Part shown: positions 1,443 through 38,200 of the stretch, one piece after another
Numbering within the stretch: the stretch's first letter is position 1
Layout: each line of letters begins with the position of its first letter
Assembly (NCBI GenBank): GCA_045863855.1
Contig: BTVV01000004.1
Location: forward strand, 5,353-69,352
DNA from: Planctomycetota bacterium
GTDB lineage: Bacteria > Planctomycetota > SZUA-567 > H5-PLA8
Direction of reading: 5' to 3'
DNA: 64,000 nucleotides
Translations under genes and position numbers: made by a program
The notes under the pieces: model-generated
Told to the model about the DNA's origin: nothing
The model's database searches: none
The model's input: only the letters and a program-made list of their open reading frames with translations

Positions 1443-3023
1443 ATGGAACTCCTCGAACGCATCCTGCACGGCTTTCTGCTCTTCGTTGCCGCGATGGCCC
1501 TTCTCAAGCTGGGTTTCGCGATTCTCGTCGCCTTCATGGCCGTCCTTTTTAAGCCGTCCCTGATCGGCAGCGTGCTGGCGGACTTGCGATGCATCCGAGA
1601 ACGCGACCCGGCGGTGGAAGGTTGGATCGCGGCGCTCTTCTATCCCGGTTGGTGGGCGCTGGCGCTGCATAAGCTGATCGCGCATCCGCTGTACCGCATC
1701 GGCTTGCGCACGCCCGCGCGGCTGGCCAACTTCGGCGCGCGTTTCCTGACCGGCACGGATATTCATCCCGGCGCGCAATTGGGCCAAGCGATCTTCATCG
1801 ACCATGCGCACGGCGTCGTGATCGGTGAAACGGCGATCGTGGGCGACGGCGTCACCGTCCTCCATCAGGTCACTTTGGGCGGCACCGGCAAGGAACACGG
1901 CAAGCGCCATCCCACGGTGGAGGACGGAGTTCTGCTCAGCGCCGGATCCAAGGTGCTGGGCAATATCGTCATCGGCGCCGATGCCAAAATCGGCGCCGGC
2001 AGCGTCGTCGTAAAAGCCGTACCCGCCGAATCCACGGTCGTCGGCATCCCGGGGCGCATCGTCGCCACCGGCGGCAAGCGCCTCCCCGCCAAATCGCTCG
2101 ACCAGACCGACCTGCCCGATCCGATCGTCGAACGCCTCGTGGCGCTGCAAGACGAACTCCGCGAATGGGAGCGCAAAGTGGAAGAAAAGAAGTCCAGCGG
2201 CGCGCGCTGGCCGAAGGCCGGTGAAGACGTGCTCGCCGAGATCGTGACGCATAAGCATGCCGAAGTGGCCGAAGCGCGCGCGCGCGCGCCGCTTCCCGAA
2301 CTGCGCAGTCAGCCCGGAGTGCGCGGTTCGCCGCGCGGCTTCGCCGCCGCTCTGCGCGGGCCGGGACTGCGGCTCATCGCAGAAATCAAGAAAGCCAGCC
2401 CTTCGGGCGGACTGCTGCGCGAAGACTTCGATCCGCAGGTCATCGCGCGCATCTACCAGGACGCGCACGCCTCGGCCCTCTCGGTGCTCACCGACCGAAA
2501 GTACTTCCAGGGCTCGCTCGAGTACCTGGCCCAGGTCCGCGCCGCCGTGGGCCTGCCGCTCTTGCGCAAAGATTTCGTGATCGACGAATACCAGATCGTC
2601 GAAGCCGCGCGCGCCGGCGCCGACGCGGTCCTGCTCATCGCCGCCTGCCTCGACGACGCCCAACTCAAGGGCTTCCGCGAAGCCGCCTCCGCCGAAGGGC
2701 TCGACGCGCTCGTCGAAGTCCACGACGAGGCCGAACTGGTCCGCGCGCTCCAGAGCGGCGCCGAGATCCTGGGCATCAACAATCGCAACCTCAAGACCCT
2801 CGAAACGAAACTCGAGACGACTTACAGGCTCGTCCGCGAACTCCCCTCCGACCGCAACGGGCTGCTCGTCGTCAGCGAGTCGGGGATCAAGACCGCCGAG
2901 GACACGCACCGCCTCATCGAAGCGGGGGTCAACGCCGTACTCATCGGCGAAACCTTCATGCGCGCGCCAGACATCGGCTCGAAGGTTCGCGAGATCATGG
3001 GGCATGGGGAGTACGCGATCTGA
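1443..3023 (+). CDS. cysE-trpC: Bifunctional fusion: serine O-acetyltransferase (CysE, hexapeptide-repeat) fused to indole-3-glycerol-phosphate synthase (TrpC)
   Basis: Residues about 40-210 match CysE (..IRERDPA..YPGWWALALHKLAH-like.., DIHPGAQLG..FIDHAHGVVIGETAIVGDGVTVLHQVTLGG..). Residues about 263-526 carry TrpC signatures (IAEIKKASPSGG, LRKDF, LVEVH, INNRNL, SESGI). The ORF is one uninterrupted 526 codons. The true start may be ATG 1536 (M32), which would remove a hydrophobic leader. Confidence 0.85.
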   Translation: MELLERILHGFLLFVAAMALLKLGFAILVAFMAVLFKPSLIGSVLADLRCIRERDPAVEGWIAALFYPGWWALALHKLIAHPLYRIGLRTPARLANFGARFLTGTDIHPGAQLGQAIFIDHAHGVVIGETAIVGDGVTVLHQVTLGGTGKEHGKRHPTVEDGVLLSAGSKVLGNIVIGADAKIGAGSVVVKAVPAESTVVGIPGRIVATGGKRLPAKSLDQTDLPDPIVERLVALQDELREWERKVEEKKSSGARWPKAGEDVLAEIVTHKHAEVAEARARAPLPELRSQPGVRGSPRGFAAALRGPGLRLIAEIKKASPSGGLLREDFDPQVIARIYQDAHASALSVLTDRKYFQGSLEYLAQVRAAVGLPLLRKDFVIDEYQIVEAARAGADAVLLIAACLDDAQLKGFREAASAEGLDALVEVHDEAELVRALQSGAEILGINNRNLKTLETKLETTYRLVRELPSDRNGLLVVSESGIKTAEDTHRLIEAGVNAVLIGETFMRAPDIGSKVREIMGHGEYAI

Positions 3024-3145: not shown

Positions 3146-4546
3146 ATGGCAAAGCGCATTCTGTACCTCGATCCGTTCAGCGGCATCAGCGGCGATATGT
3201 TCCTCGCCAGCCTGCTCGACTTGGGCCTCGATCTGGCCCACCTCAAGCGCGAACTCGCCAAGCTAGGCGTCGGCGGCTATGAGCTGAAATCCTCGAAGAC
3301 CCTGCGCGGCGTCATGGCCGCCACTCAGTTCGAAGTAATCGTGAGCCACGATCCCGCCGTACATTCGCACGCATCCCAGCCCGAGCCTGCGCACAGCCAT
3401 GGCCATGACCACGGTCATGCGCACGATCATGGCCACAGCCATAGTCATGCCCACAGCCACGAACCCGCGCATACTCACACGCATCACGAGAACCACGGTC
3501 ACGGCCATGACGCGCATCATCACCACGACGTTCACGCGCATGTTCACCGGCCATTCAAAGAGATTCGCAAGCTGATCGATGCCGCGGCGCTCTCGCCACG
3601 CGTGAAGGCGCAAAGCCTCCGCGCGTTCGAACTGCTGGCGGAAGTCGAAGGCCGTATGCACGGGCAAACAGTGGACGAGGTTCAGTTCCACGAGGTGGGC
3701 GGGTTGGACAGCATCGTCGATTTCGTCGGCGTCTGCATCGGGCTGGAGGCGCTGGGTGTGGACGAAGTGTTCTGCGGTCCGCTGGCGTTGGGGGGCGACG
3801 GCGCGCTGGGCGGATACGTCCAGTGCGCGCACGGGAAGCTGCCCGTGCCGGCCTTCGCGACGCTGGAACTGGCCAAAGGTCTGCCGCTGCGCCACGCCGG
3901 CGTGGACAAGGAACTCACCACGCCCACCGGCGCGGCGCTGGTCCAAGCGCTAGTGAAACCAGAACACAGCGGCCCACTGCCGAATTTGCAGGTAGAGCGG
4001 ATCGGCTACGGCGCAGGCGCGCGCAACGACCCGAAGATTCCGATTCCGAACGTACTTCGGGCGGTGCTGGGTACGCGGGCTTCGAGCGAGACGGCATCCG
4101 CCGCCACGCCGGCAACGATCGTCGAACTGCAAGCCAACCTCGACGACGTTTCCGGGGAAACGCTAGGCTACGCCGCCGAAAAGCTCTTCGAGGCCGGCGC
4201 ATTGGATGTTTTCTTCGTGCCCGTGCAGATGAAGAAAGGCCGCCCCGGCACGCTGTTGACGATACTCGCCGCGCCGGACCGCCAAGCCGACCTGCTGAAC
4301 GTGCTCTTTCGCGAGACGACCACCTTCGGCGTGCGCTACGAACTCAAATCCCGCGCGATCCTGGAACGGGAAACGGTCACGGTGGATACCCCGTGGGGCG
4401 ATGTGCGCGTCAAGCTTGGCCGGTGGCAAGGCGCCACGGTGAGCGCGCACCCCGAGTTCGAAGACTGCCGCAAGCTCGCCGAACGGCACGGGGTGCCGCT
4501 GCGCGCCGTCCAGGATGCCGCCCGCGCCGCCGCCGCGGATCTGTAG
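3146..4546 (+). CDS. larC: LarC-type nickel insertion protein (pyridinium-3,5-bisthiocarboxylate mononucleotide nickel chelatase, DUF111 family)
   Basis: The N-terminus LYLDPFSGISGDMFLASLLDLG is the LarC/DUF111 hallmark. A long His-rich metal-binding tract and a conserved C-terminal domain (..FRETTTFGVRY..) are also present. Confidence 0.9.
   Translation: MAKRILYLDPFSGISGDMFLASLLDLGLDLAHLKRELAKLGVGGYELKSSKTLRGVMAATQFEVIVSHDPAVHSHASQPEPAHSHGHDHGHAHDHGHSHSHAHSHEPAHTHTHHENHGHGHDAHHHHDVHAHVHRPFKEIRKLIDAAALSPRVKAQSLRAFELLAEVEGRMHGQTVDEVQFHEVGGLDSIVDFVGVCIGLEALGVDEVFCGPLALGGDGALGGYVQCAHGKLPVPAFATLELAKGLPLRHAGVDKELTTPTGAALVQALVKPEHSGPLPNLQVERIGYGAGARNDPKIPIPNVLRAVLGTRASSETASAATPATIVELQANLDDVSGETLGYAAEKLFEAGALDVFFVPVQMKKGRPGTLLTILAAPDRQADLLNVLFRETTTFGVRYELKSRAILERETVTVDTPWGDVRVKLGRWQGATVSAHPEFEDCRKLAERHGVPLRAVQDAARAAAADL
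3361..3547 (+). repeat. His-rich low-complexity coding tract inside larC (HSHASQPEPAHSHGHDHGHAHDHGHSHSHAHSH..HHHHDVHAHVH)
   Basis: Direct reading of the translation shows cac/cat alternating with ggc/gac/agc codons. Confidence 0.9.
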
Positions 4547-4557
4547 CTGCCCGCGCC

Positions 4558-5118
4558 CTATTTCTTATCCAGTTCGGTCTCGATGGCTTTAACCACATCT
4601 TCCGCATCCGGCTTGGTTCGCGGTGCGAAGCGTTCGGCCAGCGAGCCGTCGCGAGCCACCAGGAACTTCTCGAAGTTCCAGGTGATCTTCCCCGGCTTGG
4701 GTCCGTCCACAGTCAGGTACTGGTACAGCGGGTCGATTTCGACGCCTTGCACGTGGACCTTGGACATCAGAGGGAACGTGACATTGAACTTGGTCGAGCA
4801 GAACTTTTTGATCTCTTCGTTCGTCCCAGGCTCCTGCGCGCCAAAGTCGTTGCAGGGAATCCCGACCACCACCAGCCCGCGGTCCTTGTACTTATCGTAA
4901 AGGGCCTGGAGCTGCGTGTATTGCGGCGTCAAGCCGCAGCGCGAGGCGACATTGACGAGAAGCACCACCTTACCCTTGTACTGGCTCAGCGGGTGATCGC
5001 TGCCGTCGTTGGCCTTAAGAGTGAAGCTGAGAGGCGATGCCGCCACGGTCTTTTCCTCCGCGTAAAGCCCACACGCCAGGGCCGCCACGGCCACCAGCAT
5101 CACAAGGCGTCGAGACAT
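4558..5118 (-). CDS. gpx: Glutathione peroxidase family protein (Cys-type) with an N-terminal signal peptide
   Basis: Canonical GPx blocks are present: VNVASRCGLTPQY, IPCNDFGAQEPG and WNFEKFLV. The hydrophobic N-terminus is MSRRLVMLVAVAALACG. Confidence 0.9.
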   Translation of the reverse strand: MSRRLVMLVAVAALACGLYAEEKTVAASPLSFTLKANDGSDHPLSQYKGKVVLLVNVASRCGLTPQYTQLQALYDKYKDRGLVVVGIPCNDFGAQEPGTNEEIKKFCSTKFNVTFPLMSKVHVQGVEIDPLYQYLTVDGPKPGKITWNFEKFLVARDGSLAERFAPRTKPDAEDVVKAIETELDKK

Positions 5119-5204
5119 GCGTGAAGCTCCTGAAATCGACCCGTTCTTGAAAGGTGTCCACCAGCTTGGCGGACGCTTCGTCGCGCCTTCAATTCAATCC
5201 GGCG

Positions 5205-5477
5205 CTACTGCTGCTTGGCTTTAACCACTTCGGCGATATTCGCCACAGTGCGGAATTTCTTGAGGCTGAACTCTTCGTCTTCCAGTGCGATCCCGAAAAC
5301 TTCTTCCAGCCCGATCACGATTTCCATCAACTGCACCGACTCGAGCCCCCACTTCTCCATCAGGTCGTCCGTGTCGCCGATATCCGCAGGCTGCGCCTTA
5401 AGCATCAAGCGGTCTACGATCATGATTTTGAGCTGAACTTCCAGGCTGTCGTCGGCCACGAGATGCTCCTTAAGCAT
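5205..5477 (-). CDS. Acyl carrier protein-like (phosphopantetheine-binding) protein
   Basis: The protein is 90 aa and acidic. It has an ACP-like helix II motif, ..DDLMEKWGLESVQLMEIVIGLEEVFGI.., where the Ser of the GLES variant corresponds to the DSL site. No acyl-transfer partner gene lies in the window. Confidence 0.6.
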   Translation of the reverse strand: MLKEHLVADDSLEVQLKIMIVDRLMLKAQPADIGDTDDLMEKWGLESVQLMEIVIGLEEVFGIALEDEEFSLKKFRTVANIAEVVKAKQQ

Positions 5478-5747
5478 GGCGGTTCATGCGGCTTACCAGG
5501 GAACCGTTTCAGACCGGCGTTCGTCAGGGAGTCGCCTCATTCGTATAAACCGAGATTGTAACGTGAGCTACTGCAAAGCCGCCACGGCCAAGGGAAGGGC
5601 CAAAGGGGGTGACCACAAAAAGTTCTCCGCGAGCCCGGTAATGACCAGGACAGTGCTTGACAGAAAACGAGCATCTTATAGTTTGCCCTATGTGCACTAC
5701 TCCATTTTAAAGACCTGCGGACCGGTCGAAAGCGACTAGGATGACTC

Positions 5748-6956
5748 ATGGTCCAAATCAATTTCGCGACGCGTGAGGTCAACTGCAAGATTGTGTTCTA
5801 CGGTCCCGGCCGATGCGGGAAGACCACGAACTTGCAAGTCGTCCACGCCAAAGCGCCGCCGAACAGCACCGGCGACTTGGTCTCCATCGCCACGGAGACC
5901 GACCGCACGCTGTACTTCGACTTTTTGCCGCTCGATTTGGGCCAAGTCGCGGGCATGCGGACCAAGTTCTCGCTCTATACGGTCCCCGGCCAGGTGTACT
6001 ACGACGCCACGCGCAAGCTGGTGTTGCAGGGCGCCGACGGGATCGTATTCGTGGCCGACTCCAATCCAGACATGATGGAAGAGAATATCGAATCGCTGAA
6101 CAACCTGGCCGTGAACCTGCGCGAGAACGGGCTGGACATCAACGAGTTGCCGGTGGTGCTGCAGTTCAACAAGCGCGACCTTGAGAATCCCGTACCTATC
6201 GAGGAAATGAACGCGAAGCTAAACCGCGCCAACTGGCCCGCCGTACCGGCCGTGGCAGTGAACGGCGACGGGGTGTTCCAGACGCTTAAGGCGATCTCCC
6301 AGTTCGTGATCAAGAAGTTGAATCGCGAACAGGGTTATTCGGAAGACGGCAGTCGCCGCGGCGGCGGTGCAGCCCGGCCTTCGGCGAAGTCGGCCGCCGC
6401 ACCGCCTCCGCCTCCGCCCCCGCCGCCGGGTGCAAAGGCTCCCCCGCCGCCCCCCAAGCCCGCTGCTGCACCGCCGCCGCCCAGCCCTAAGGCGCCGACT
6501 CCACAGCCGCAGCCGGCCGCAAAGCCCGCGACGCCCGCATCCGCCGCGTCGCTGCCCAAGCCTAAATTTCCGACTCCGGCCCCTCAGCCGGTGGTGCTGC
6601 CTAAAAAGGATCCGCCATCCGGTGCGGTGCTTCCCAAGCCTCAGGCTCCAGCCGCCGCTTCGGTGCCGGCGCCGGAAGTCGCCAACGAGCCCGAAGCGGC
6701 GGTCGAGGCACCGCCCACACCGGCACCGGCTTCCGCCCCGGCTCTTAACCCGGTGGCCGCCGAGATCGCCAAACGCAAGCGGGCCGAAGAAGAAGCGCGC
6801 CGAAACGCACCTGCCGAAGAGCCCGTAGAGGCCGCCCCACCGGCGGCGCCGGCCGGCGGAGGGGGTTCGAAAACCGTCGTCATCGTCTTGGCCGTGCTGG
6901 CTTTGGCGGGAGTGGCCGCCGCTTTGTTCTTTGTCTTTAAAGGGAGTGGGTCCTGA
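5748..6956 (+). CDS. mglA: MglA-like Ras-superfamily small GTPase with a Pro/Ala-rich C-terminal extension and a C-terminal transmembrane anchor
   Basis: Residues 1-192 are nearly collinear with Myxococcus MglA as I recall it. Shared elements are INCKIVFYGPGRCGKTT (P-loop), ETDRTLYFDFLP (Arg53 equivalent), YTVPGQVYY (Gln82 equivalent) and NKRD. Residues 193-375 are Pro/Ala-rich low complexity. Residues 376-397 (TVVIVLAVLALAGVAAALFFVF) form a hydrophobic helix. Confidence 0.85.
   Translation: MVQINFATREVNCKIVFYGPGRCGKTTNLQVVHAKAPPNSTGDLVSIATETDRTLYFDFLPLDLGQVAGMRTKFSLYTVPGQVYYDATRKLVLQGADGIVFVADSNPDMMEENIESLNNLAVNLRENGLDINELPVVLQFNKRDLENPVPIEEMNAKLNRANWPAVPAVAVNGDGVFQTLKAISQFVIKKLNREQGYSEDGSRRGGGAARPSAKSAAAPPPPPPPPPGAKAPPPPPKPAAAPPPPSPKAPTPQPQPAAKPATPASAASLPKPKFPTPAPQPVVLPKKDPPSGAVLPKPQAPAAASVPAPEVANEPEAAVEAPPTPAPASAPALNPVAAEIAKRKRAEEEARRNAPAEEPVEAAPPAAPAGGGGSKTVVIVLAVLALAGVAAALFFVFKGSGS
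6324..6872 (+). repeat. Pro/Ala-rich low-complexity linker coding region within the mglA-like gene
   Basis: The translation reads AAPPPPPPPPPGAKAPPPPPKPAAAPPPPSPKAPTPQPQPAAKPATP..., with a ccg/gcc-rich nucleotide periodicity. Confidence 0.85.
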
Positions 6957-7053
6957 CCCATGGACCGCGGCGCAAGCAAGCGCTATACTGCGCCTGCCCG
7001 CAGCGAAATGAGTACGCGGAGTCCCGACACACGTGGGGCTTGGGAGGTTTCCG

Positions 7054-7572
7054 ATGGCGTTTAGCGAAAAAATGCGGCAGGCCCGGCTGGTCTTCTACGA
7101 AGAAGATGTAGAGGATATCAATAAGCTCCTGGGCGATTTTCTAGAGCGTTCCCAAGCCAAGTGCGCGCTCTTGATCGACAAGGAAGGCCACCTCGTCACT
7201 AAAAAGGGCTTCACGAAGTCCTTCAATACCGATTCCATTGCCGCCCTCGTGGCCGGCTCCTTCGCGTCCACGCGCGAAGTCGCTAAGTTGCTGGGCGAGA
7301 CGGAGTTCTCGGTGCTCTTCCACCAAGGCAAGAACGAAAACATCCACATTGGTTTGGTGGCCGAACGCGCGCTGGTCGTGATCATCTTCGACGACCGCAC
7401 CACGTTGGGCATGGTTCGGTTGTACGCCGAAGAGCTGACGACCAAGCTTTCCGATACTTTGCTGAAGGCCATCGATAAACATAAAGACAAGAACGACGGG
7501 GTCGGCGCCGAGTACGAAAAAGCCGCAGAAAAAGCGCTCGACGACTTCTTCGGTTCTGACGAAAAGGCCTGA
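7054..7572 (+). CDS. mglB: Roadblock/LC7-domain protein, MglB-like (candidate GAP partner of the MglA-like GTPase)
   Basis: The sequence pattern is Roadblock/LC7-like (..ALLIDKEGHLVTKKG..SIAALVAGSFASTREVAKLLG..LVVIIFDD..). The gene lies immediately downstream of the mglA homologue. The ORF track begins at GTG 7033, but ATG 7054 has GGGAGG 6 nt upstream. The C-terminal tail is acidic. Confidence 0.75.
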   Translation: MAFSEKMRQARLVFYEEDVEDINKLLGDFLERSQAKCALLIDKEGHLVTKKGFTKSFNTDSIAALVAGSFASTREVAKLLGETEFSVLFHQGKNENIHIGLVAERALVVIIFDDRTTLGMVRLYAEELTTKLSDTLLKAIDKHKDKNDGVGAEYEKAAEKALDDFFGSDEKA

Positions 7573-7743
7573 TTCGAAGGCTTCAACGGACGATCGTGGC
7601 GGGGGCCGGAAGCTCCAGCAGGGAGCCGTGCCCCCAATCTACCTCCCCTTGCGCATATGCCGACGATATCTTAGTTTGCAGGACCAACGCGGCTAGGGGG
7701 TTAGGCGTTACGTTGCCGCGGGTTGCCAGGCGGCGGGTTCAAC

Positions 7744-10700
7744 ATGGGCTTCCAAGGAAGCGTCGAAAGCTTCAGTCTGGCCGACGTCTTCCAGAACCTT
7801 GCCATGAATCAGCAGACTGGCACGCTGCGCATCGTGGCGCCGGACGGTAAAGAACGGCATATCTTCTTCGACGCCGGCCAAGTCAAAAATCTTTCCCGCG
7901 GCACGCAGATTCCCTTGGTTTTGGGCGAGATGCTGGTCGGACGCAGCATTTCCAGCCCTGAGCAGGTGGAAGAGGCGCTGGCGGCTCAGAAAGAGCGGCG
8001 CAAGCCCCTTGGCGAGTGCATGCTCGAGTTGGGCTTCCTCGACCGCGACCGTCTGGAAGCCGTCCTTAAACACCAGATCGGCGAAGAGTTGTACGAGCTC
8101 TTCGGGTGGGAAAAGGCGAACTTCGAGTTCACCGAAGGACCGGCCAATCCGCAACTTTTCGTGGACCGGGGCCTCGGTAGCCCTTCCTTGCCGATATCCA
8201 GTCTGATCATGGAAGCCGCGCGGCGGGTGGACGAAGTCGAACGCCTGCGCGAGCAGATCCCGTCTTTCAAAGAGATCTACGTCGTCGATAAGGATGTTCG
8301 CGAAGCGTTGGAAAGCGGGGCGCTGGAAACGGACGCCATCGAACGCCGCGTCATCACGCTGGTGGACGGCAAGCGCGACGTGGACGACCTGATCGCCGAC
8401 TCCTTCCTCTTTCGCTTCGAGGTGCTTTCGACGCTGGCCGGATTCCTGCAGTCCTCGCTGGTCCGGCCAGCGAAGCTGGAGGAGTTGCAAGCGGCCACGC
8501 CCGAACTGCGCGAGGCCGGCGACAAGGGCCGCCTGTGCAAGAACCTCGAGCGCCGTCTCGCGTTGGGCGACGACACCGGCGACGTGCGCCGCGAATTGGC
8601 CGACGTGCTGGCGGCTTCCGAACAGGCCGAAAAAGCCGCCATCCATTACAGCGTCCTGGCCGACGGGGAACAGAAGGCCGGCAACGAAGACGGGGCCGTC
8701 GATCTGTACCGCAAAATCCTGCAGGTGCTGCCGCACCACCTTCCTTCGCGCGAACGCCTGGGCACGATCTACGCGCGCCGTGGACAGCTGCGCGAGGCTA
8801 TGGTGCAGTTCCAGGAAGTGATTCAGGCGCACCAACGCGCTCAAAATTTCGCCTCGGCCCGCCGCGTGGCTCAGCAAGCTCTCGAAATCGAGCCGACCGC
8901 GCATGACATCCGACGCGAACTCGTCCAGATCCTGGTCGACGAAGGAGATAAGGCGGCCGCGGCGCGCGAATGCGAGGTGCTGGGCGATATGCTGGCCCGG
9001 CAGGGCCAGTCGCGGGAAGCCGCCGAATGCTACCGCCGCGCGATTCAGGTCATGCCCGGCTTGGCGCACCTGAAGAAGAAACTAGCCAATGTCATGCTCA
9101 CGCAGGAAGACCGGCGCGCGCGGACGAAGCGCACGCTGATCGTCACCGTCTCGGTACTGGCCGTCCTGGCGATCGGCGGCGCGCTGGGCCTGCGCGAGTT
9201 CAATTTATACACCACGTGGCAGCGCACGCGGGAACAGGTCAAGCTGCTCCAGGGCACGGCGGCCGAGTTCGAGGCCCAAGAGCGGTTTAAAGACGCCGCC
9301 GACAAATACGAAGATGCCATTCGCCGCATCGCATCCAGCGAGATGAAGGACACGTTCGCCCCCATCACACGGGTCAACGACGAGGCACGCGCGCTGCATA
9401 ATAAGCTCGAGAACGCGCGCAACGCGGCGGTGCAAAAGCACGACGTCATGGCGGCCAGCGAGCAGAAGAACAGCAAGGAAGTGCTCGATCAGGGCCGCGC
9501 GCTCTGGAAAGCCGACGATCTATTCGCCGCGATCGCGAAGTTCGACGAGGTGCTGAGCAACCAGTTCGCTCCCGAGGAAGTGCGCACGGAAGCGGCCGAG
9601 TTGAAGGAAAAGACCGAGGCCAAAGCGACCGATTACAAAGCCGGTATCGCGCGCATGAAGAAACCGCCGCGCGAGTCCTTCAATGGAGTCCAGGAAGAGT
9701 ACCGCTTCAAGCTGGCCTTCTTCGAGCGCTTCGGCAAGGTGCCCGAGCTGTCCAAGGAGAAGCTTGAGTTGCCGGTTCTGGTGACCCTCAAGAACGTGGA
9801 CCGTGTGCTGGTGTACAAGGACGGCACATTCCTGGGGCCGGCGAGCAAAGGCGCCGAGAATGTCTTTCGCTACGACCGCGCCGAAGCGAAGCGGTTCGAG
9901 TTCCGCAAAGAAGGGTACAAGACCGAGTTTCGGCTGGTTCGCGAAATGGACGTCGAAGCGACGGTCAGCTTGCAGCGCGAGCCGGCCTTCGTGGCGCGTC
10001 TGCCGGTGAAGCCTTCGGGCGGCGCCGTCTACGATGGCAAAGACATCTGGGTCGGCACCGTGGAAGGCGGACTCCTGCAACTCACCCCCGGCCCTAAGGG
10101 ACTGACCGCCGCATGGGAATTCAAGCTTCCGGGCGGAGGCGGGCTGGATAAGGAAGTTTTCGGCAACGTCGTCGTGCAAACCGTAGGCGGCAAGAAGTTG
10201 CTGCTCTATTCCACCAAGGCCGGCGACCGCGTCGCGGTGGAACCGGGTAACGAGAAGCCGGCGCTTTTCGGAAAATCGAAAGACCGCTCGGTGCTGGAGA
10301 CGCCCGCGCGCATCCAGCATCTACCTTTGGCCGGCGATCAGCTTTTCTTCCTCATCCCGCGCGACCGGCGCCTGGAAGGCTACCGCGCGGAGCAGGATAT
10401 TCCGCTCTGGTCACGCGGTAGCGAAGAGTTGCCGAAGGCCATCACCTGCGGGCCGCTGCTGATTCGCCAGGAAGAACTGCTCGTCGTCGGCTGTGCCGAC
10501 GGCAATCTGTACGGGTTGTCGCTGCGCGACGGCACGCGCCAGCGCGTATGGACCACGCGCGGTCAGGCCATCGCGGGCGGCCCCCTGCTGATTCGAAACC
10601 TGCTCGTCGCCTGCGGCCGCGAGGGCAGCGTCTTCTTCTTCGACCTCAAGGGCGGCGGGGAGCTGAACACCGAGTCCATCCCCGGCAGCGTATACGCAGA

Positions 10701-11034
10701 TCCGATCGTGCAGCGCCAGATGCTCTTCGTGGGCGCCTCGCTTCCCGACGGGTTGTTCGCGATCGATCTGGATACGCAGCGCCTGCGCTTCGCGTACACC
10801 GGCGAACAGATCGACGGAGGCATCACGACCACGCCGGCGGTGGTGGGCGATTTCGTTTACTACGGCACCGAACGCGGCCATTTTTACGCTTTGAAGTACG
10901 ACGGCCAAGGTTACGAACAGAAATGGGATTACCGTGCTCCCGATGGAGCGCGCATGGTGTGCAGTCCTGTGGCGATCGGAACGCGTGCCTTTTTCTTTTG
11001 CGCCGATGGCCGGGTCTACGTCTTCGACGACTAG
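7744..11034 (+). CDS. Multidomain membrane protein: DUF4388 (PatA-N-like) + degenerate MshEN/T2SSE_N-like module + TPR repeats + TM helix + PEGA-like domain + PQQ-like beta-propeller
   Basis: The N-terminus [26 protein letters not shown] is the DUF4388 signature. Tandem 24-residue MshEN-like motifs lie at aa 66-118 of the ORF. A TPR-like helical region spans about aa 300-460 and a TM helix is [20 protein letters not shown]. The PEGA-like segment is ..[21 protein letters not shown]... The C-terminal repeats are BamB/PQQ-like (..[19 protein letters not shown].., ..[15 protein letters not shown]..). The ORF track starts at TTG 7723 and the first ATG is 7744. Confidence 0.75.
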
Positions 11035-11580: not shown

Positions 11581-11699
11581 GTGCTTTGACTGCCACGGAA
11601 CCGGCCTCCTGGGGTAATTAGTAACGTGTTGTCCCGTCACGGGTTGTGCTCCCGTGCGGCACACGTGCGGGAGCCGGGTTCTCAGCCGGGGGCGGGTGG

Positions 11700-14870
<3,171 letters not shown>

Positions 14871-15786: not shown

Positions 15787-16111
15787 GCGGATCTCCGAGG
15801 CATGAGCGCTTCTGCTCCATCAAATTACACGAACGCGCTCCGATTCGGCAGACTGGATGCCTTGAGAGTCGGGCGCACTTGTGAACCTCATTCCTCTCAC
15901 CAACCTAAACTCAATGGCCGCAAGGTGCCGCAGTGGAACGTCCTTTCCGACGCGGGTCGGATAGGAGTCACCGCGAGCCCGCGATGAGCGTCTAAGGATT
16001 GCGACGCTTTATCGAGAGATGGCCTGTGTTGCCTTAACCCTTTGTGCGGGATATGGTTGCAAGGCGCCTGCGCCCATCGAGGCCGATCCGGAAAGGAGGT
16101 CCGTGAACGCC

Positions 16112-20032
<3,921 letters not shown>

Positions 20033-27078: not shown

Positions 27079-28707
27079 TCAGGGCATTGCGTGTTTCGGT
27101 CCGCTTTCGCCCGGTTTACGCATGCCGGCTTGGATGCAGGCTTCCTTTAAGCGGCGTTTATCCGCTTCGGCAAGTTCCAGAATCTGCAAGCCCAATACCC
27201 ACGCGCCGGGCGAATCGGGTTCGTTGGTTTTCACGAAGCGTAAGCTGCACAGGCATTTCACCGGCTGCGGCTCGATCAACACCGTCATGCTCACGCATAA
27301 CCCGCGGCGGCGGAGGTCTTCGGGAGAGCCCAAGCCCGGATCGGGGCCTTCGATCGAGAATCCGCCTTCGCTGATGTCCACCGTGCGGCCCTGGCATTCG
27401 GCGTCGGCGACGACCCGGCCCAAGCGGTTACAGAATTGGTAACGCACCGGGAATTCGCAGCGATAGCGCATGTGGCGGCGTTCGTTGCGCTTTTCCTTGG
27501 GTCGCAGTTGATCGATCGCGAGCAGCACCAGGTCTTCCTGAGCGAGGAATATTTCGATATGCCTCTGCGAGATGCGTTCCATCTCTTCGAGCACGTCGGC
27601 GGGCAGCGGATTGGCCACGGCGATGCAGAGTACTCGGCGCGATTCGTCGAAGGGCACGAACTCATGCCGCTGCATCATCGGAAACGGAAAGACATGCGCC
27701 AAGGACTCTGGAATTTCTGCGCCCTGCAGGTCGGTCATCGGCAATCCGGACTGCAAAGCCAGCGCACGGCAGAGTTCGTCGGGCTGGATCAACCCTTCTC
27801 GAAGCAAGTAGCGGCCTAAGCGTTCGCCCGAAAAACGCGAACGCTCGACGGCGGCAGCGATTTCGTCGTCGCCGAGCTTGCCCATGTGGACCAGTATTTC
27901 TCCGACGCGCTTGCCGCGAAAGGGATCGGCAGCGCGCGGTTCAACATCTTCTTCGGCCAAAGGCGGCGGAGGCGGGGGCGCGAGCGGCGAACCATCCGAT
28001 TCGCTCGCGGCCTCCGTAGCTTCCGGCACTTCGGACGGAGGCGGATCCGGAGGAGTTTCCCGCGGCTGAAGAGCGTGCAATTCCGCAGCTGCTTCGGCAG
28101 GGCTCAATTCTTCCAAGGCCGGATACCCGGCCGGTGCGGCGTGGAGGCTGGCGTTGGTAGAAGGAACGGCCGGCGTGCGCGTGCCGCTGACCGGCGCGGG
28201 CGGCACATCCGGACGCGCACGGTCCCCGCGTTCGACGCGCGTCGTGGTCGTCGAGCCTTTGGTGCTGGCCCCCACCAGATAGGCCGCCGAATCGACCACC
28301 TTGCCGGTGCCGAACGCGTCGCGAACCTTGTCGGTGGCGAAAAAGAGCATCACCTTCTGAAGCAACTCGCGCTGCTCGCGCGAGACGTTGCGGAACTGCA
28401 AGCCTAGTTCCATGCCGCCGCCGGCGGTGGGATCCAAGCGGCGGATCTCGACTTCTAACGGCACATTCCTGAGATGGGGCGGACAGGTGAGTTCGATGTT
28501 CAGCGGACGCTGCGGCCCGAGCACGCGTTTCCATGCATCGGCGACGGCGGCATCCAAGGCGTGCAGCGGCGCGAGGCAGCGGCAGCCGCCTTCGCTCATA
28601 TCCAACAAGTTACAAGCTACGGAGGGAACCCCTCCGTAACGCAGCAGCACGATGCCATCGCCCACCCGGAGGCGGACGTTGGTCCTGAGCCGCTCTTCTT
28701 TGCTCAT
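27079..28707 (-). CDS. PilZ - MshEN/T2SSE_N - PilZ protein (putative multi-site c-di-GMP receptor)
   Basis: N-terminal PilZ: RTNVR (RxxxR) and DMSEGG (DxSxxG). Centre: two 24-residue motifs, RVGEILVHMGKLGDDEIAAAVERS and RLGRYLLREGLIQPDELCRALALQ, separated by 5 residues, followed by a GspE-N-like fold (..FPFPMMQRHEFVPFDES..LCIAVANP..). C-terminal PilZ: RNERR and DISEGG. Confidence 0.85.
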   Translation of the reverse strand: MSKEERLRTNVRLRVGDGIVLLRYGGVPSVACNLLDMSEGGCRCLAPLHALDAAVADAWKRVLGPQRPLNIELTCPPHLRNVPLEVEIRRLDPTAGGGMELGLQFRNVSREQRELLQKVMLFFATDKVRDAFGTGKVVDSAAYLVGASTKGSTTTTRVERGDRARPDVPPAPVSGTRTPAVPSTNASLHAAPAGYPALEELSPAEAAAELHALQPRETPPDPPPSEVPEATEAASESDGSPLAPPPPPPLAEEDVEPRAADPFRGKRVGEILVHMGKLGDDEIAAAVERSRFSGERLGRYLLREGLIQPDELCRALALQSGLPMTDLQGAEIPESLAHVFPFPMMQRHEFVPFDESRRVLCIAVANPLPADVLEEMERISQRHIEIFLAQEDLVLLAIDQLRPKEKRNERRHMRYRCEFPVRYQFCNRLGRVVADAECQGRTVDISEGGFSIEGPDPGLGSPEDLRRRGLCVSMTVLIEPQPVKCLCSLRFVKTNEPDSPGAWVLGLQILELAEADKRRLKEACIQAGMRKPGESGPKHAMP

Positions 28708-35277: not shown

Positions 35278-38200
35278 CTAAGGCTGCGGTGAGGGTCCGG
35301 CCGTCGGCGCCCAGACGACCGGGCCGCCGTGATATTCCAGAAACACCTGCGCGCCGAAGTTCTGATCCTCGTGTACGTAAACTCTCTGCATGAAGAGCGT
35401 TCGATCGTACGCAAGGATGGCGTTGATCGGAGCGTTGAATTCCGGCGGCTTGAAACGATCGTCCGTTTTCCCGTCGGCCTGCCGCAAGACCGCGGGACCG
35501 GCCGAAGTGGGAAACAGCAGTTGAGAGCGCGTCGCGATCGGTTGCCCGAGAAGCCGGCCTGGCAAGGGGGCCATCCAGCGCACCCCTCCGTCCGTATCCA
35601 ACCACGCGGCTTCGCCTTGCTCGCTGGCGAAACAGATGCCTTGCGGGGTGACGACGGGGCCGATCGAGTGGTATCCGCTTAGCTCGCGCTTCCAAAATTC
35701 GCGTCCGGTGCGGAGATCGAATGCGTGCGCGACGCCCTTCTCGTCGCCAAGATAGATGCGATCATGAAAGATTGCGGGCGTCGCCCGCGTATGCGGCGCA
35801 ATGGGCGCGCGCCATGCGGCTTGGCCTTCTTCGGCGCGAACGGCGATCAACTCGCCATTCCCGCTGGCGAAGACCACCAATCCGCCAGCGACCGCCGGTC
35901 CGCCGCGAATTTTTCCGCCCGCCGAAAACTCCCAAATTACGGTTCCCGAGTGCACGTCCACTTTGTAAAGCGTTCCGTCATCGGACCCGAAGTAGAGATC
36001 GTCCCCCACCGGCGCGGGCGAACTGTACACGCGCCCTCCGGTCTTGAAGCCCCACAGGTAGGTTCCGTTGTCGGCGACCGCGTGAAGCTTCCCGTCGGCC
36101 GAACCCACAAATAGCCGCCGCGCATAGCGCGCGGGCGTGGACGTGGGCGTGATGGAAGCCAGTCCCCAAGCAGGTCCTTGGACGAAGGCATCGCTCTTGC
36201 GCTTGTTTTTCTTTTCCTCGACAGCGCTTTCCGTGCGCCGGTCGGCGATCGAGCGAATGGCGCCTCCCGCTTCACCGAAGGTGAACACTCGGTCCACGTA
36301 CGTCGCGCCGACCTGAAAGGCCGGTGTGGCGCCGATGCGGTTGGTATTCTGCTCGGTATACGCTCCCGTCACGTCCTCGGGAAACGCATCGGGCACCCTT
36401 CGTGGATTGGCCAGGAGCATGGGAAAAGCCAGCGGATCCGTGGTTCCGGCGAGCGGCGCGTCTTCGCCGTCCAGAGGGCCGTAGAGTTCCACTTCGGTAA
36501 GGCTTTCGTGGCGTCCCGGATGTTTGCCCGGAAGAATCTTGATCGCATCGGTGAGCATCGGTTTCGGCAGGCGCACCACCACGAAGCGCCGGCTGTTGCC
36601 CTTCACCAGCGCGATCGTTTTGGGCACCGGCGGCTGCGCTTCCAAGTCATTGGCAAGAATGCAAAGGTGCCGGTACGCGTTCTCGGGATTCGCGTTGTTC
36701 AGGTACAGGACGATATGCGAAATGAATGCAGGCTTGGCGAGGACGGCGCTGAAACCCATCGCGCGCGGCGGATAGGTCCAGATCGGGCCGACATCGTCAA
36801 GCCGTCCGTTGTGCAGGTAAGCCTGTTCTTCGACGAATTTCTGCGTGCCGGTTGTGGTCCCCGGAGCAAAGACCACCATGTGGTTGCGCGAAGCGAGACG
36901 CTTGGAAAGTTCGGGAGCGATGCGGTTGTACTGCACCCGAATGTCCTTCACGTACGTGGGCTCCACCGCGTGTAGTTCAGCATCGGCCAAGAGATTCGAA
37001 GACGGAAAGCGAACCGCGCGCAGGCTTACCGCGTCGACCAGCACCTCGCCGCCCACGGCTTCCAGACCTATCGTCAAGCCTTTGGTCTCGGCGTACGACT
37101 TGACCGCTAAGCGGCCGAACAACCATTCGCCGGTCACGCCACCGAAGCGCGAAACGGTAAATGTCTCCTTCTCCCCGGCCAGAGCGCCGCCGGCCACGAG
37201 CGCGGCTTGCGGCGAACTCAGCTTGTAACGAAACTCAAGCAGGTAAGTTGCTGACGGAATCGCTTTGCGCGGCAGCTTCTGCGTAACCGGCGTTCCGGGC
37301 AGCAGCCGCAAGGCGCGATTGCCGTCCAAACCTGGCTCTAAATAGGCCGGCGCACTCCCCTCGGCCTGCCAGCCTCCGTTCCCTTCGAAACTCGGCTGCT
37401 CGAGTTGCTCGACACCCAAGCGTAGCAGGGTGTCGTAATCGCCGGGCCGGTCGACGCTGAGCGGGAAGAATTCTTCGGTGCTGTCGCGATCGCGGCGCAG
37501 GGTTTGCCTGACGAATTGCGCATAGGGCAGATCGGGATACTCGACCAGATCGCGCAGGCGGACGCGCCAAACTTGCTTGCCCGAAGCGTCGAACTTAACG
37601 ACATCCCCGTTGATGGCTCCCGCCAGGAGCCCTTCGGTCAATGGGAGCAGCCGCGCGCTGAACGGCATGCGCGCTTCCCAAGCCGGTTTTCCAGACTCGA
37701 GATCGAGCGCCATGACCGCGCCATCTCGATCGCAACGGTACACCCGGCCGGACTTGGCGTCCATGCGATCGAGGCTCGGCATCCAGACGCGTGCATCGCG
37801 GTAGGTCCACATAGGTTTCCCGTTTGGCGCGCGGCGCGTGACTTCATACAGGCCGAACTCCAACGCGCTGCCATCGGCAAGAGTCTGGCCAGGACTTGGA
37901 GTAAGCGTGCCGAGCTTTCCGTCTAAAGGCCAAAGCGTCCACTGGCTGCCGGTGACGATGCGCGGCCATTCCTCACCGGCGTTCCAGGCCAGCGAGAAGT
38001 GACCGGATTCGATACTCTCCGCGCGCTCGTCGGCCAACTGGGCGATGCGTTCGCCCGTGCGCGCATGGAAGATTTCAGGTTCGAATCGCCATACCGTATA
38101 AATGTAAACGCCCATCTTGGTGGTGCCGGCGTTGCGCGACTGTCCCAAGGCGATTTTCTCGCCGTCCGGCGAAATCACCACATTGCCAAGATTTAGCGTG

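What the first reader, a model, noticed from the sequence alone, without database searches (positions are those of the whole stretch)
5748..6956. Tail-anchored MglA: a complete MglA-type GTPase fused to a roughly 180-aa polyproline linker and a C-terminal transmembrane helix
The G domain (nt 5748-6323) retains the P-loop, the intrinsic Arg (R53), Gln82 and NKRD at the same positions as Myxococcus MglA. It should therefore be an active GTPase. MglA proteins are normally soluble and about 195 aa, and they cycle between cytosol and pole. Here the ORF continues for 210 codons, first as a Pro/Ala-rich region (PPPPPPPPPGAKAPPPPPKP...) and then as a hydrophobic helix (6873-6938) followed by KGSGS. 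A permanently membrane-tethered MglA on a long flexible leash would be a different mode of polarity or motility GTPase deployment. I am not aware of this having been described.
Basis: partly seen in the sequence, partly recalled or inferred. Interest (0 to 1): 0.65.

Follow-up and report, generated by a model that had tools for sequence, protein, structure and literature searches.

The report
Membrane-anchored MglA polarity GTPase
This is a real, conserved gene for an MglA-type small GTPase (a bacterial polarity and motility switch so far described as cytosolic) that is tethered to the cell membrane by a long proline-rich leash and a C-terminal membrane helix, and the same design occurs across Planctomycetota and some other phyla without, as far as I could find, having been described.

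Summary
Window 5748-6956 (+) is one uninterrupted 402-codon ORF. It encodes a complete MglA G domain (aa 1-195), a Pro/Ala-rich disordered linker (aa 196-375) and a 22-residue hydrophobic helix (aa 376-397) followed by KGSGS.

It is not a sequencing artefact. Contigs from three independent metagenome studies match it with 0 differences. A 94%-identical genome carries the same 402-aa ORF, with 62 synonymous against 3 non-synonymous codon changes and two in-frame 6-nt indels. Of the 116 listed homologues of at least 280 aa, 112 have a hydrophobic segment in the C-terminal extension, and 90 of them have it at the C-terminal end.

The catalytic residues are invariant in 60 such proteins. mglB lies immediately downstream. 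Next comes a conserved receptor-like protein with cytoplasmic PATAN and TPR domains, one membrane helix and a periplasmic beta-propeller.

Fibrobacterota relatives replace the membrane helix with a MinD-like basic amphipathic tail, so membrane attachment looks like the selected trait.

My best reading is a membrane-confined MglA/MglB switch coupled to the PATAN-TPR receptor. The architecture is shown. GTPase activity, membrane localisation and the partner are inferred.

The main survey of prokaryotic Ras-like GTPases excluded MglA-clade proteins longer than 240 aa, and I found no description of this form. I rate it a new variant of a known kind, interest about 0.6.

The parts
5748..6956 (+). 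Whole gene: 402-aa membrane-anchored MglA (stop codon 6954-6956)
   Evidence: Single ORF. Contigs from three independent metagenome studies are identical over it. 62 synonymous against 3 non-synonymous codon differences to L001.
5748..6332 (+). MglA G domain, aa 1-195 (P-loop G19-T26, R53/T54, T78-Q82 'TVPGQ', N141-D144 'NKRD')
   Evidence: phmmer against PDB: M. xanthus MglA 5ymx E 7.8e-75, T. thermophilus 3t12 E 3.4e-66. 58% ungapped identity to M. xanthus MglA. Catalytic residues invariant in 60 long homologues. AF2 models a folded G domain.
6333..6749 (+). Disordered Pro/Ala-rich linker, aa 196-334. It starts with the clade-conserved motif LNREQGYSEDG and includes the P9 (aa 219-227, nt 6402-6428), P5 and P4 tracts.
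   Evidence: Composition and tracts. No secondary structure in the AF2 model. Conserved post-G-domain motif. 37 synonymous against 3 non-synonymous differences and in-frame indels. GCC-period repeat at 6393-6428.
6750..6806 (+). Conserved juxtamembrane charged helix, aa 335-353 (PVAAEIAKRKRAEEEARRN; family consensus NPLxxEIRRRK)
   Evidence: Aligned across many homologues. AF2 helix 335-353 with pLDDT 73-87.
6807..6872 (+). Acidic and Gly-rich spacer, aa 354-375, ending GGGGSK before the membrane helix
   Evidence: Direct reading. Low pLDDT at 365-372.
6873..6938 (+). C-terminal transmembrane helix, aa 376-397 (TVVIVLAVLALAGVAAALFFVF), the tail anchor
   Evidence: Summed hydrophobicity -3.6 kcal/mol, the only such segment in the protein. 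AF2 helix 374-399, pLDDT 84-89. An equivalent hydrophobic segment is present in the extension of 112 of 116 close homologues, at the C-terminal end in 90 of them.
6939..6953 (+). Five-residue extracytoplasmic tail, KGSGS
   Evidence: Direct reading.
7033..7572 (+). mglB: Roadblock/LC7 GTPase-activating protein, 179 aa, no membrane segment
   Evidence: Pfam Robl_LC7 4e-10. NCBIfam MglB 3.4e-28, below the curated cutoff. phmmer against M. xanthus MglB 6izw_B 1.3e-27, including the C-terminal helix. Immediately downstream of the long mglA in L001-L003 and L005-L011. No TM segment.
7723..11034 (+). Receptor-like bitopic protein, 1103 aa. It has cytoplasmic PATAN (DUF4388/PatA_N) and TPR domains, one TM helix at aa ~472-490, and a periplasmic coiled region plus PQQ/BamB-like beta-propeller. 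It is the proposed membrane partner of the anchored MglA.
   Evidence: Pfam. TM segment with a basic N-terminal flank, conserved in L008-L010. The cassette mglA-long, mglB, PATAN protein is conserved in L001, L003, L008, L009 and L010.

Best explanation
The gene encodes a genuine Group-1 MglA GTPase whose G domain sits in the cytoplasm. It is held permanently at the cytoplasmic membrane by a C-terminal tail-anchor helix, through a disordered Pro/Ala-rich leash of about 180 residues that carries a conserved charged juxtamembrane helix.

The G domain keeps the complete MglA catalytic set. It most likely cycles between GTP and GDP, with the co-encoded soluble MglB as its GAP.

Because the protein cannot leave the membrane, the switch would act in two dimensions. 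It would recruit or activate partners at the membrane, rather than shuttling through the cytosol between poles as M. xanthus MglA does. From polymer scaling, the leash should let it reach roughly 10-20 nm on average, and about 55 nm fully extended.

The most likely partner is the protein encoded two genes downstream, which has cytoplasmic PATAN and TPR domains, one TM helix and a periplasmic beta-propeller. Together the three genes would form a transmembrane polarity or signalling module.

Shown: the gene is real and under selection, the G domain is MglA, the anchor is conserved, and the gene cassette is conserved. Inferred: GTPase activity, GAP action of MglB, insertion and topology in the membrane, and the PATAN-TPR protein as partner.
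For: The gene is real:
- Identical contigs in three independent metagenome studies, and a metatranscriptome contig that spans mglA, mglB and the start of the PATAN gene.
- 62 synonymous against 3 non-synonymous codon changes and two in-frame indels relative to L001.

It is MglA:
- E 7.8e-75 to M. xanthus MglA, with a gapless alignment.
- G19, K25, T26, R53, T54, T78, G81, Q82 and N141-D144 are invariant in 60 long homologues.

The anchor:
- It is the only hydrophobic segment in the protein, at -3.6 kcal/mol, and AF2 models a confident helix there.
- Of 116 homologues of at least 280 aa, 94 have a clearly hydrophobic segment in the extension. In 72 of these it lies within 15 aa of the C-terminus, and in 22 a longer tail follows it.
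- Another 18 have a marginal, Gly-rich C-terminal segment. Only 4 have none.
- Basic residues precede the helix in homologues, which fits a cytoplasmic N-terminal side.

Membrane attachment is the selected trait:
- Fibrobacterota relatives lack the TM helix but end in a basic motif with paired hydrophobic residues, such as KKKGFFSRLFGRK.
- This motif is found in 95 of 115 such proteins, against 1 of 1285 control windows.

Partners:
- mglB is always adjacent.
- The PATAN-TPR-TM-propeller protein is conserved in the cassette across G-domain identities of about 61-100%.
- PATAN and TPR genes also flank the Fibrobacterota version.
- A PATAN-MglB neighbourhood was already noted in the literature (PMC4316618).
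Against: - There are no experimental data on localisation, topology or nucleotide hydrolysis.
- TM prediction rests on a hydrophobicity scale recalled from memory and on AF2, not on dedicated software.
- The PATAN protein as a direct partner rests on synteny alone. PATAN domains are uncharacterised in this context.
- I could not check whether the same genome also encodes a short cytosolic MglA. If it does, the anchored form would be a specialised paralogue rather than the polarity GTPase itself.
- The metatranscriptome contig may contain DNA carry-over.
- The linker may be more than a passive leash. It has conserved motifs whose role is unknown.
Confidence: 0.7

Rival explanations
1. Artefact. 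The extension is created by a frameshift, a misassembly in a GC-rich Pro-codon tract, or chance read-through in GC-rich DNA, and the true product is a 195-aa MglA.
For: GC-rich DNA gives long spurious ORFs. The antisense frame across the linker also has no stops, and shadow ORFs exist at 6367-6828 (+) and 6641-6979 (-). GC3 in the linker (0.68) is lower than in the G domain (0.85).
Against: - Three independent assemblies are identical.
- A 94%-identical genome keeps the same 402-aa ORF, with 37 synonymous against 3 non-synonymous linker changes and two indels of exactly 6 nt.
- All 15 listed linker differences in a third allele fall on codon position 3 of this frame.
- More than 100 homologues share the architecture.
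- The low GC3 is explained by CCN and GCN codons raising GC1 and GC2.
Confidence: 0.01
2. Regulated-release precursor. The anchor stores MglA at the membrane, and a protease cuts the linker to release a soluble, canonical-size MglA, as happens with membrane-tethered transcription factors.
For: The long disordered linker is an accessible protease substrate. The motif LNREQGYSEDG directly after the G domain is conserved and could be a processing or recognition site. A signal-peptidase-family gene (Peptidase_S26) lies near the cassette in one relative, L008.
Against: - No protease gene is conserved in the cassette.
- The linker sequence is under purifying selection along its whole length.
- The juxtamembrane helix is conserved, which is not expected for a disposable tether.
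- Relatives with reversible amphipathic tails point to function at the membrane.
Confidence: 0.1
3. The C-terminal hydrophobic segment is not a stable anchor but a C-terminal sorting or secretion signal (PEP-CTERM/exosortase or sortase type) that is removed after export.
For: The layout of a low-complexity region, then a hydrophobic helix, then a short polar or basic tail superficially resembles C-terminal sorting signals. Planctomycetes are known, from my own knowledge, to have PEP-CTERM proteins.
Against: - There is no N-terminal signal peptide or other hydrophobic segment.
- There is no PEP or LPXTG motif before the helix.
- A GTPase domain needs cytoplasmic GTP, and its cognate soluble MglB has no export signal.
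- Basic residues lie before rather than after the helix in homologues.
Confidence: 0.02
4. The anchored MglA is a specialised paralogue. Its Pro-rich linker is the functional part, serving as a docking platform for proline-recognition domains such as bacterial GYF domains, and the G domain merely gates that scaffold.
For: PolyP tracts (P9, P5, P4) sit close to the G domain in many homologues. In M. xanthus the GltJ GYF domain binds the Pro-rich sequence of AglZ, and GYF proteins are over-represented in Planctomycetes-Verrucomicrobia (PMC11135422).
Against: - No GYF-domain gene was seen among the window ORFs I scanned.
- That paper found no correlation between ZnR-GYF proteins and mglA-mglB operons outside the Myxococcales.
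- Linker length and sequence vary widely, from 85 to 312 aa.
- Some homologues have only 8-15% Pro.
Confidence: 0.15

Closest known systems
MglA/MglB polarity module of Myxococcus xanthus and Thermus thermophilus (Group-1 MglA of Wuichet & Sogaard-Andersen 2015, PMC4316618)
   Same: The G domain is 58% identical to M. xanthus MglA and aligns without gaps. It has the same P-loop, intrinsic Arg finger R53, G3 TVPGQ with Q82, and NKRD. The mglB Roadblock gene is adjacent and keeps its C-terminal helix.
   Different: Canonical MglA proteins are 195-197 aa, single-domain and described as cytosolic. This one is 402 aa with a 180-aa linker and a C-terminal TM helix. The mglA-mglB pair is fused into a cassette with a bitopic PATAN-TPR-propeller protein.
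Eukaryotic Ras/Rho/Rab GTPases with a C-terminal hypervariable region and lipid anchor (own knowledge)
   Same: The same logic applies: an N-terminal G domain, a flexible poorly conserved C-terminal linker, often a polybasic stretch, and then a membrane anchor at the extreme C-terminus.
   Different: The anchor here is a protein TM helix, not a prenyl or palmitoyl lipid, so no GDI-type extraction cycle is possible. The linker is 4-6 times longer. The G domain belongs to the MglA clade, not to Ras, Rab or Rho.
Membrane-anchored eukaryotic and archaeal small GTPases: Miro (C-terminal TM, own knowledge), SR-beta (N-terminal TM) and archaeal ArcoA (N-terminal amphipathic helix; preprint 10.64898/2026.07.23.738820)
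   Same: Each is a small G domain held on a membrane by a terminal helix. JGI even labels these planctomycete proteins 'signal recognition particle receptor subunit beta'.
   Different: SR-beta and ArcoA anchor through the N-terminus. The window protein's best matches are MglA, with only weak Arf or SR-beta-like Pfam scores. That preprint explicitly contrasts ArcoA with 'cytosolic' MglA.
MinD/FtsA-type C-terminal amphipathic membrane-targeting sequence (E. coli MinD ...KKGFLKRLFGG, recalled from memory)
   Same: Long MglA relatives in Fibrobacterota end in KKKGFFSRLFGRK-like motifs. This suggests the same function, membrane attachment of the C-terminus.
   Different: The window protein has a full hydrophobic TM helix and so a permanent anchor, not a reversible amphipathic helix.
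Streptomyces conservon (CvnA-D): membrane histidine kinase, Roadblock protein and MglA-like GTPase (PMC4316618)
   Same: A membrane receptor-like protein is encoded together with an MglB-like and an MglA-like protein, and the literature describes these as forming a membrane-associated complex.
   Different: Conservon GTPases are Group-2 MglA and lack the Arg finger, and they are themselves small and unanchored. The receptor there is a histidine kinase, not a PATAN-TPR-propeller protein.

Membership tests
MglA family, Group 1 (Wuichet & Sogaard-Andersen 2015) | Significant full-length similarity of the G domain to characterised MglA | tested here: met
   E 7.8e-75 to M. xanthus MglA and 3.4e-66 to T. 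thermophilus MglA. The next best PDB hits (Ypt31, Arf6) reach only 1e-5 to 1e-4. 58% ungapped identity over 194 residues.
MglA family, Group 1 | Intrinsic arginine finger adjacent to the conserved G2 threonine (R53-T54) | tested here: met
   TETDRTLYF places R53 and T54 at the M. xanthus positions. Both are invariant in 60 long homologues.
MglA family, Group 1 | G3 motif TVPGQ (Thr in place of the Ras Asp, catalytic Gln82), G1 GxxxxGKT and G4 NKxD | tested here: met
   T78-V-P-G-Q82, G19-PGRCGKT26 and N141-KRD144. All are invariant.
MglA family, Group 1 | Genetic coupling to an MglB (Roadblock/LC7) gene | tested here: met
   mglB lies at 7033-7572, 76 nt downstream. The adjacency is conserved in 10 related loci.
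MglA family, Group 1 | Small single-domain cytosolic protein (the survey used 150-240 aa as its inclusion window) | tested here: not met
   The protein is 402 aa with a linker and a TM helix. The survey excluded MglA-clade sequences longer than 240 aa: 39 of 488, of which 14 were coupled to MglB.
MglA family, Group 1 | GTP binding and MglB-stimulated GTP hydrolysis | not testable with these tools
   This needs purified proteins. Only residue conservation is available.
Tail-anchored membrane proteins | A single TM segment within about 30 residues of the C-terminus | tested here: met
   TM at aa 376-397 of 402, leaving a 5-residue tail.
Tail-anchored membrane proteins | No N-terminal signal peptide or other hydrophobic segment | tested here: met
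   The best 19-residue window outside the TM helix scores +12.6 kcal/mol. The N-terminus aligns from residue 3 with cytosolic MglA.
Tail-anchored membrane proteins | Demonstrated membrane integration with the N-terminal domain in the cytoplasm | not testable with these tools
   This needs fractionation and topology reporters.
C-terminal sorting signals (PEP-CTERM/exosortase, LPXTG/sortase) | N-terminal signal peptide plus a PEP or LPXTG motif just before the C-terminal helix | tested here: not met
   There is no signal peptide, and the sequence before the helix is PAAPAGGGGSK.
SR-beta (the JGI database label of homologues) | N-terminal TM anchor and SR-beta-type G domain | tested here: not met
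   The anchor is C-terminal. Pfam gives only weak Arf and Gtr1 hits (1e-5), while MglA structures match at 1e-75.
MinD-type amphipathic membrane-targeting sequence | A short basic amphipathic helix at the extreme C-terminus instead of a TM helix | tested here: not met
   The window protein ends in a 22-residue apolar helix. The amphipathic motif occurs in Fibrobacterota relatives.

The most novel reading that the evidence does not exclude
The anchored MglA, MglB and the bitopic PATAN-TPR-propeller protein form a bacterial receptor-coupled small-GTPase pathway. In this reading a periplasmic signal or envelope contact sensed by the beta-propeller is passed across the membrane to the PATAN/TPR domains. 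These load or bind the membrane-tethered MglA and so set polarity, pili or budding sites in Planctomycetota. The layout of G domain, hypervariable linker and C-terminal membrane anchor, thought of as a eukaryotic Ras/Rab invention, would then have arisen independently, or earlier, in several bacterial phyla with interchangeable anchors (TM helix or amphipathic helix).
Probability: 0.25. Interest if true: 0.8.

Novelty: new variant of a known kind. Interest (0 to 1): 0.6.

Why it matters
MglA is the model bacterial Ras-like polarity switch. Current models depend on it being a soluble protein that binds the cell poles only in its GTP form.

A large natural family of MglA proteins that cannot leave the membrane would have to work differently. 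Candidate mechanisms are lateral diffusion, local activation by a membrane receptor, or reach-limited recruitment through a leash. Such a family is a natural experiment on how much of the Mgl logic depends on cytosolic cycling.

It also gives a first handle on polarity control in Planctomycetota. These bacteria have unusual budding and division modes and few characterised spatial regulators.

It provides a prokaryotic counterpart to the eukaryotic design of G domain, hypervariable linker and membrane anchor, which bears on how small-GTPase membrane targeting evolved.

On the practical side, these proteins are currently labelled 'hypothetical', 'GTPase' or 'SR-beta' and could be re-annotated.

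Tried and rejected
1. I first took ORF 5154-5561 (+) for a conserved upstream partner, because tblastn found it upstream of mglA in L001-L004. It is the antisense shadow of a real minus-strand acyl-carrier-protein gene at 5205-5477 (Pfam PP-binding 9e-9). It is divergently transcribed and not part of the module.

2. ORF 5476-5739 (+) is conserved only in the near-identical L001 and has no family hit. I treat it as spurious and regard the region as intergenic.

3. The promoter and terminator scan of 5400-7800 gave counts within chance and no terminator between mglA, mglB and the PATAN gene. It is uninformative beyond being compatible with an operon.

4. Two cluster-member look-ups intended to obtain taxa gave almost no names. 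The only one was Candidatus Schekmanbacteria for one TM-type cluster.

5. All 150 best hits in the 50%-identity representative search are long. I do not take this as evidence that short forms are rare, because cluster representatives may be the longest members.

6. Eight literature searches found no description of a membrane-anchored MglA. They combined MglA with Planctomycetes, transmembrane, tail-anchored, amphipathic helix, membrane-anchored, PATAN, or Ras superfamily, prokaryotes and MglB; one search used Planctomycetes, small GTPase and roadblock without MglA. The library lacks most subscription journals, so absence is not proof.

7. No GYF-domain protein was found among the window ORFs I scanned, so the idea that the linker is a GYF ligand stays untested.

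8. The two downstream Ser/Thr kinases are syntenic only in close relatives. I did not count them as part of the module.
Full report
OBSERVATION. Window 5748-6956 (+) is a single ATG-initiated ORF of 402 codons. Residues 1-195 align without gaps to M. xanthus MglA (phmmer against PDB: 5ymx E 7.8e-75; T. thermophilus 3t12 E 3.4e-66) and are 58% identical to it. Direct reading gives the P-loop G19-PGRCGKT26, R53-T54, T78-VPGQ82 and N141-KRD144, exactly at the M. xanthus positions.

Residues 196-375 are 29% Pro and 25% Ala, with P9, P5 and P4 tracts. Residues 376-397 (TVVIVLAVLALAGVAAALFFVF, nt 6873-6938) are the only hydrophobic segment in the protein. The summed biological-hydrophobicity scale is -3.6 kcal/mol there, against +12.6 for the best window elsewhere (scale values recalled from Hessa et al. 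2005). The protein ends KGSGS.

IS IT REAL? GC-rich DNA makes long spurious ORFs. The antisense frame over the linker is also open, and shadow ORFs overlap it. Three independent lines show that this frame is translated.

(i) The window is 94% identical at the DNA level to MAG 'Planctomycetota bacterium H5_PLA8' (L001). That genome has the same 402-aa ORF.
- The G domain has 24 synonymous and 0 non-synonymous codon differences.
- The linker has 37 synonymous and 3 non-synonymous differences.
- The TM region has 1 synonymous and 0 non-synonymous differences.
- Two indels in the linker are each exactly two codons long.

(ii) Logan contigs from three unrelated studies (sediment, bioreactor and aquaculture metagenomes) cover 5600-7097 with 0 differences and 0 gaps, and two of them (X1, X2) continue unbroken to 7700; in the third (X4) the mglB part is covered by separate contigs. 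A metatranscriptome contig of 2615 nt carries the L001-like allele with the same two 6-nt indels. It runs from 5645 through mglA and mglB into the next gene. All 15 linker differences listed for it fall on codon position 3. DNA carry-over in that library cannot be excluded.

(iii) The 120 best database homologues at the 90% clustering level are, apart from a few truncated entries of 223-272 aa, all long (up to 571 aa), and every named one comes from Planctomycetota MAGs.
- Of the 116 that are at least 280 aa, 94 have a clearly hydrophobic segment in the extension.
- In 72 of these it lies within 15 aa of the C-terminus. In 22 a longer tail follows it.
- Another 18 have a marginal, Gly-rich C-terminal segment.
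- Only 4 have none, and two of those end KKKWWQFWK.
- Linker length ranges from 85 to 312 aa, with a median of 158.

ANATOMY. An alignment of 60 TM-type homologues (A1) shows the catalytic residues to be invariant: G19, K25, T26, R53, T54, T78, G81, Q82 and N141-D144. Directly after helix alpha-5 there is a clade-specific conserved motif, LNREQG[YF]xxDG. About 20-40 residues before the membrane helix there is a conserved charged motif, NP[LV]xxEIxRRK, which is PVAAEIAKRKRAEEEARRN at aa 335-353 in the window protein.

AlphaFold2 run with A1 gives four regions:
- a folded G domain at aa 1-194;
- no secondary structure at aa 195-334;
- a helix at aa 335-353 with pLDDT 73-87;
- a helix at aa 374-399 with pLDDT 84-89.

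In homologues the residues before the membrane helix are strongly basic (KKKK, RRRR). This fits a cytoplasmic N-terminal side.

CONTEXT. mglB follows 76 nt downstream at 7033-7572. It matches Pfam Robl_LC7 at 4e-10 and M. xanthus MglB 6izw_B at 1.3e-27, including the C-terminal helix. It has no TM segment.

The next gene, 7723-11034, encodes 1103 aa with PATAN (DUF4388/PatA_N), TPR repeats, one TM helix at aa ~472-490 preceded by ARTKR, and a PQQ/BamB-like beta-propeller. By the positive-inside rule the PATAN and TPR parts are cytoplasmic and the propeller is periplasmic.

The cassette of long mglA, mglB and the PATAN-TPR-TM-propeller gene is conserved in L001, L003, L008, L009 and L010, across G-domain identities of about 61-100%. 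The TM helix of the PATAN protein is conserved in L008-L010 as well. L008 and L009 add a TPR-Roadblock fusion and a 115-aa Roadblock protein upstream.

Upstream of mglA in the window is a divergent acyl-carrier-protein gene at 5205-5477 (-). The apparent conserved '+' ORF there is its antisense shadow. Two large single-TM Ser/Thr kinases follow the cassette but are syntenic only in close relatives.

WIDER FAMILY. I ran an exhaustive phmmer search of the G domain against 1.84 billion 50%-identity representatives. It gave 2242 hits at E <= 1e-30, and all 150 best (55-84% identity) are 244-702 aa with the G domain at the N-terminus. One caveat applies: representatives may be the longest members of their clusters.

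Their C-termini fall into classes:
- a TM helix at the end (29 clear, 16 marginal);
- a TM helix followed by a tail (13);
- no TM helix but a basic stretch followed by a motif of paired hydrophobic residues, such as KKRGFFSRLFGRK, KKKGFFDGLFKK or KYKKNFLDNLFKK (34);
- a smaller group with a beta-strand-like end.

The amphipathic-tail motif occurs in 95 of 115 relatives of P0200 but in only 1 of 1285 random internal windows. The named members are Fibrobacterota: Chitinivibrionales, Chitinispirillaceae and Fibrobacter MAGs. The motif closely resembles the MinD membrane-targeting sequence (own knowledge).

In the Fibrobacterota locus L011, MglB also carries a Pro/Gln-rich extension, and it ends in the same YFTS.N...FLSKFFN-type motif as MglA. 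PATAN and TPR genes, both with hydrophobic segments, lie just upstream. One TM-type cluster includes Candidatus Schekmanbacteria. Attachment of the C-terminus to the membrane, reached by different means, thus appears to be the conserved trait. The association with MglB, PATAN and TPR proteins crosses phyla.

MECHANISM (inferred). The G domain has everything that Group-1 MglA needs for MglB-stimulated hydrolysis: the intrinsic Arg finger and the catalytic Gln (PMC4316618). It therefore most likely cycles between GTP and GDP. The tail anchor would hold it on the cytoplasmic face of the inner membrane.

The disordered leash of about 180 residues should allow a mean reach of roughly 10-20 nm, and at most about 55 nm if fully extended as polyproline-II. 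This is my own polymer-scaling estimate. The switch would then act by lateral diffusion and local recruitment rather than by cytosolic pole-to-pole relocation.

The co-encoded PATAN-TPR receptor is the best candidate partner, whether as effector, GEF or scaffold. Three points support this:
- TPR proteins are known MglA effectors in M. xanthus and Bdellovibrio (own knowledge).
- PATAN-MglB neighbourhoods were noted before (Makarova et al. 2006, as cited in PMC4316618).
- PATAN proteins co-occur with the MglA effector SgmX (PMC11580455).

Alternatives are regulated proteolytic release of the G domain and the Pro-rich linker acting as a docking site. The second is suggested by the GltJ GYF domain binding the Pro-rich sequence of AglZ (PMC11135422). 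Neither is excluded, but each has weaker support.

COMPARISON AND NOVELTY. By G-domain criteria this is a Group-1 MglA. It fails only the criterion of being small, single-domain and cytosolic.

The reference survey of prokaryotic Ras-like GTPases built its classification on proteins of 150-240 aa. It explicitly excluded the 39 MglA-clade sequences longer than 240 aa, of which 14 were coupled to MglB. It lists no Planctomycetes among the Group-1 lineages. A July 2026 preprint still contrasts membrane-binding ArcoA with the 'cytosolic' MglA family. Eight full-text searches found no description of a TM-anchored or amphipathic-tail MglA. Subscription literature is not covered.

In function it resembles eukaryotic Ras/Rab proteins (hypervariable region plus lipid anchor) and tail-anchored GTPases such as Miro, but it is not homologous to them beyond the Ras superfamily. 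I classify it as a new variant of a known kind. The sequences are in public databases, labelled 'hypothetical', 'GTPase' or 'SR-beta'.

VERDICT. The gene is real, conserved and under selection. The architecture is shared by a large, cross-phylum family, and the gene sits in a conserved three-gene membrane module. Activity, localisation and the partner remain to be shown. Interest is 0.6.

Noticed in passing
window 7723-11034 (+): 1103-aa receptor-like protein with N-terminal PATAN (DUF4388) and TPR repeats, one TM helix at aa ~472-490, and a C-terminal PQQ/BamB-like beta-propeller. The same architecture and TM position are conserved next to long mglA-mglB in distant planctomycete loci L008-L010.
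   Followed up: partly
L011 6001-8261 (Fibrobacterota/Chitinivibrionales metagenome contig); proteins P0141-P0260 and P0272-P0386: Long MglA relatives without a TM helix end in a MinD-like basic amphipathic motif (KKKGFFSRLFGRK, KYKKNFLDNLFKK). In L011 the MglB homologue (291 aa) also has a Pro/Gln-rich extension, and it ends in the same YFTS.N...FLSKFFN-type motif as its MglA. The GTPase and its GAP therefore seem to share one targeting signal.
   Followed up: partly
homologues P0008-P0039, P0120, P0163: A planctomycete subtype has an invariant polybasic stretch plus Cys ('KKKGC[FLM]G') immediately before a Gly-rich, only marginally hydrophobic C-terminal segment. P0080 and P0112 instead end 'KKKWWQFWK'. 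The meaning of the juxtamembrane Cys is unknown.
   Followed up: no
L008 5476-6988 and L009 5687-6970: Some planctomycete cassettes carry two extra Roadblock genes directly upstream of the anchored mglA: a TPR-Roadblock fusion (311-382 aa) and a 115-117-aa Roadblock protein reminiscent of MglC. Both are absent from the window.
   Followed up: no
window 5205-5477 (-), with shadow ORFs 5154-5561 (+) and 5476-5739 (+): A 90-aa acyl-carrier-protein-like gene (PP-binding 9e-9) is transcribed divergently from mglA. Its antisense shadow gives tblastn hits in related loci and could be mistaken for a conserved '+' strand gene.
   Followed up: yes
window 11646-14870 (+) and 16019-20032 (+): Two very large Ser/Thr protein kinases (1074 and 1337 aa), each with one predicted TM helix after the kinase domain, lie directly downstream of the Mgl cassette. 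They are syntenic only in close relatives (L001, L003).
   Followed up: partly
window 1443-3023 (+): A 526-aa fusion of a hexapeptide-repeat (LbH transferase-like) N-terminal region with indole-3-glycerol-phosphate synthase (TrpC). This is an unusual domain combination.
   Followed up: no
window 27079-28707 (-): A 542-aa protein that combines PilZ and MshEN domains. Both are c-di-GMP-binding modules linked to type IV pilus systems, which may be relevant if the Mgl module controls pili.
   Followed up: no
window 35278-43188 (-): A giant 2636-aa protein whose only recognisable domain is a C-terminal PQQ/BamB-like beta-propeller, the same propeller type as in the PATAN protein.
   Followed up: no
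window 52390-58840 (-): A run of genes resembling a Bat/aerotolerance-type cluster: BatA-VWA (786 aa), a GATase1-like/YtkA protein (754 aa) and a DUF4175 protein (609 aa). Next to it lies a 1614-aa NPCBM/CBM11 protein at 47549-52393.
   Followed up: no
window 3146-5118: A LarC-type nickel-insertion protein at 3146-4546 (+) and a glutathione peroxidase with a probable signal peptide at 4558-5118 (-) lie upstream. Both look like ordinary housekeeping genes unrelated to the module.
   Followed up: no
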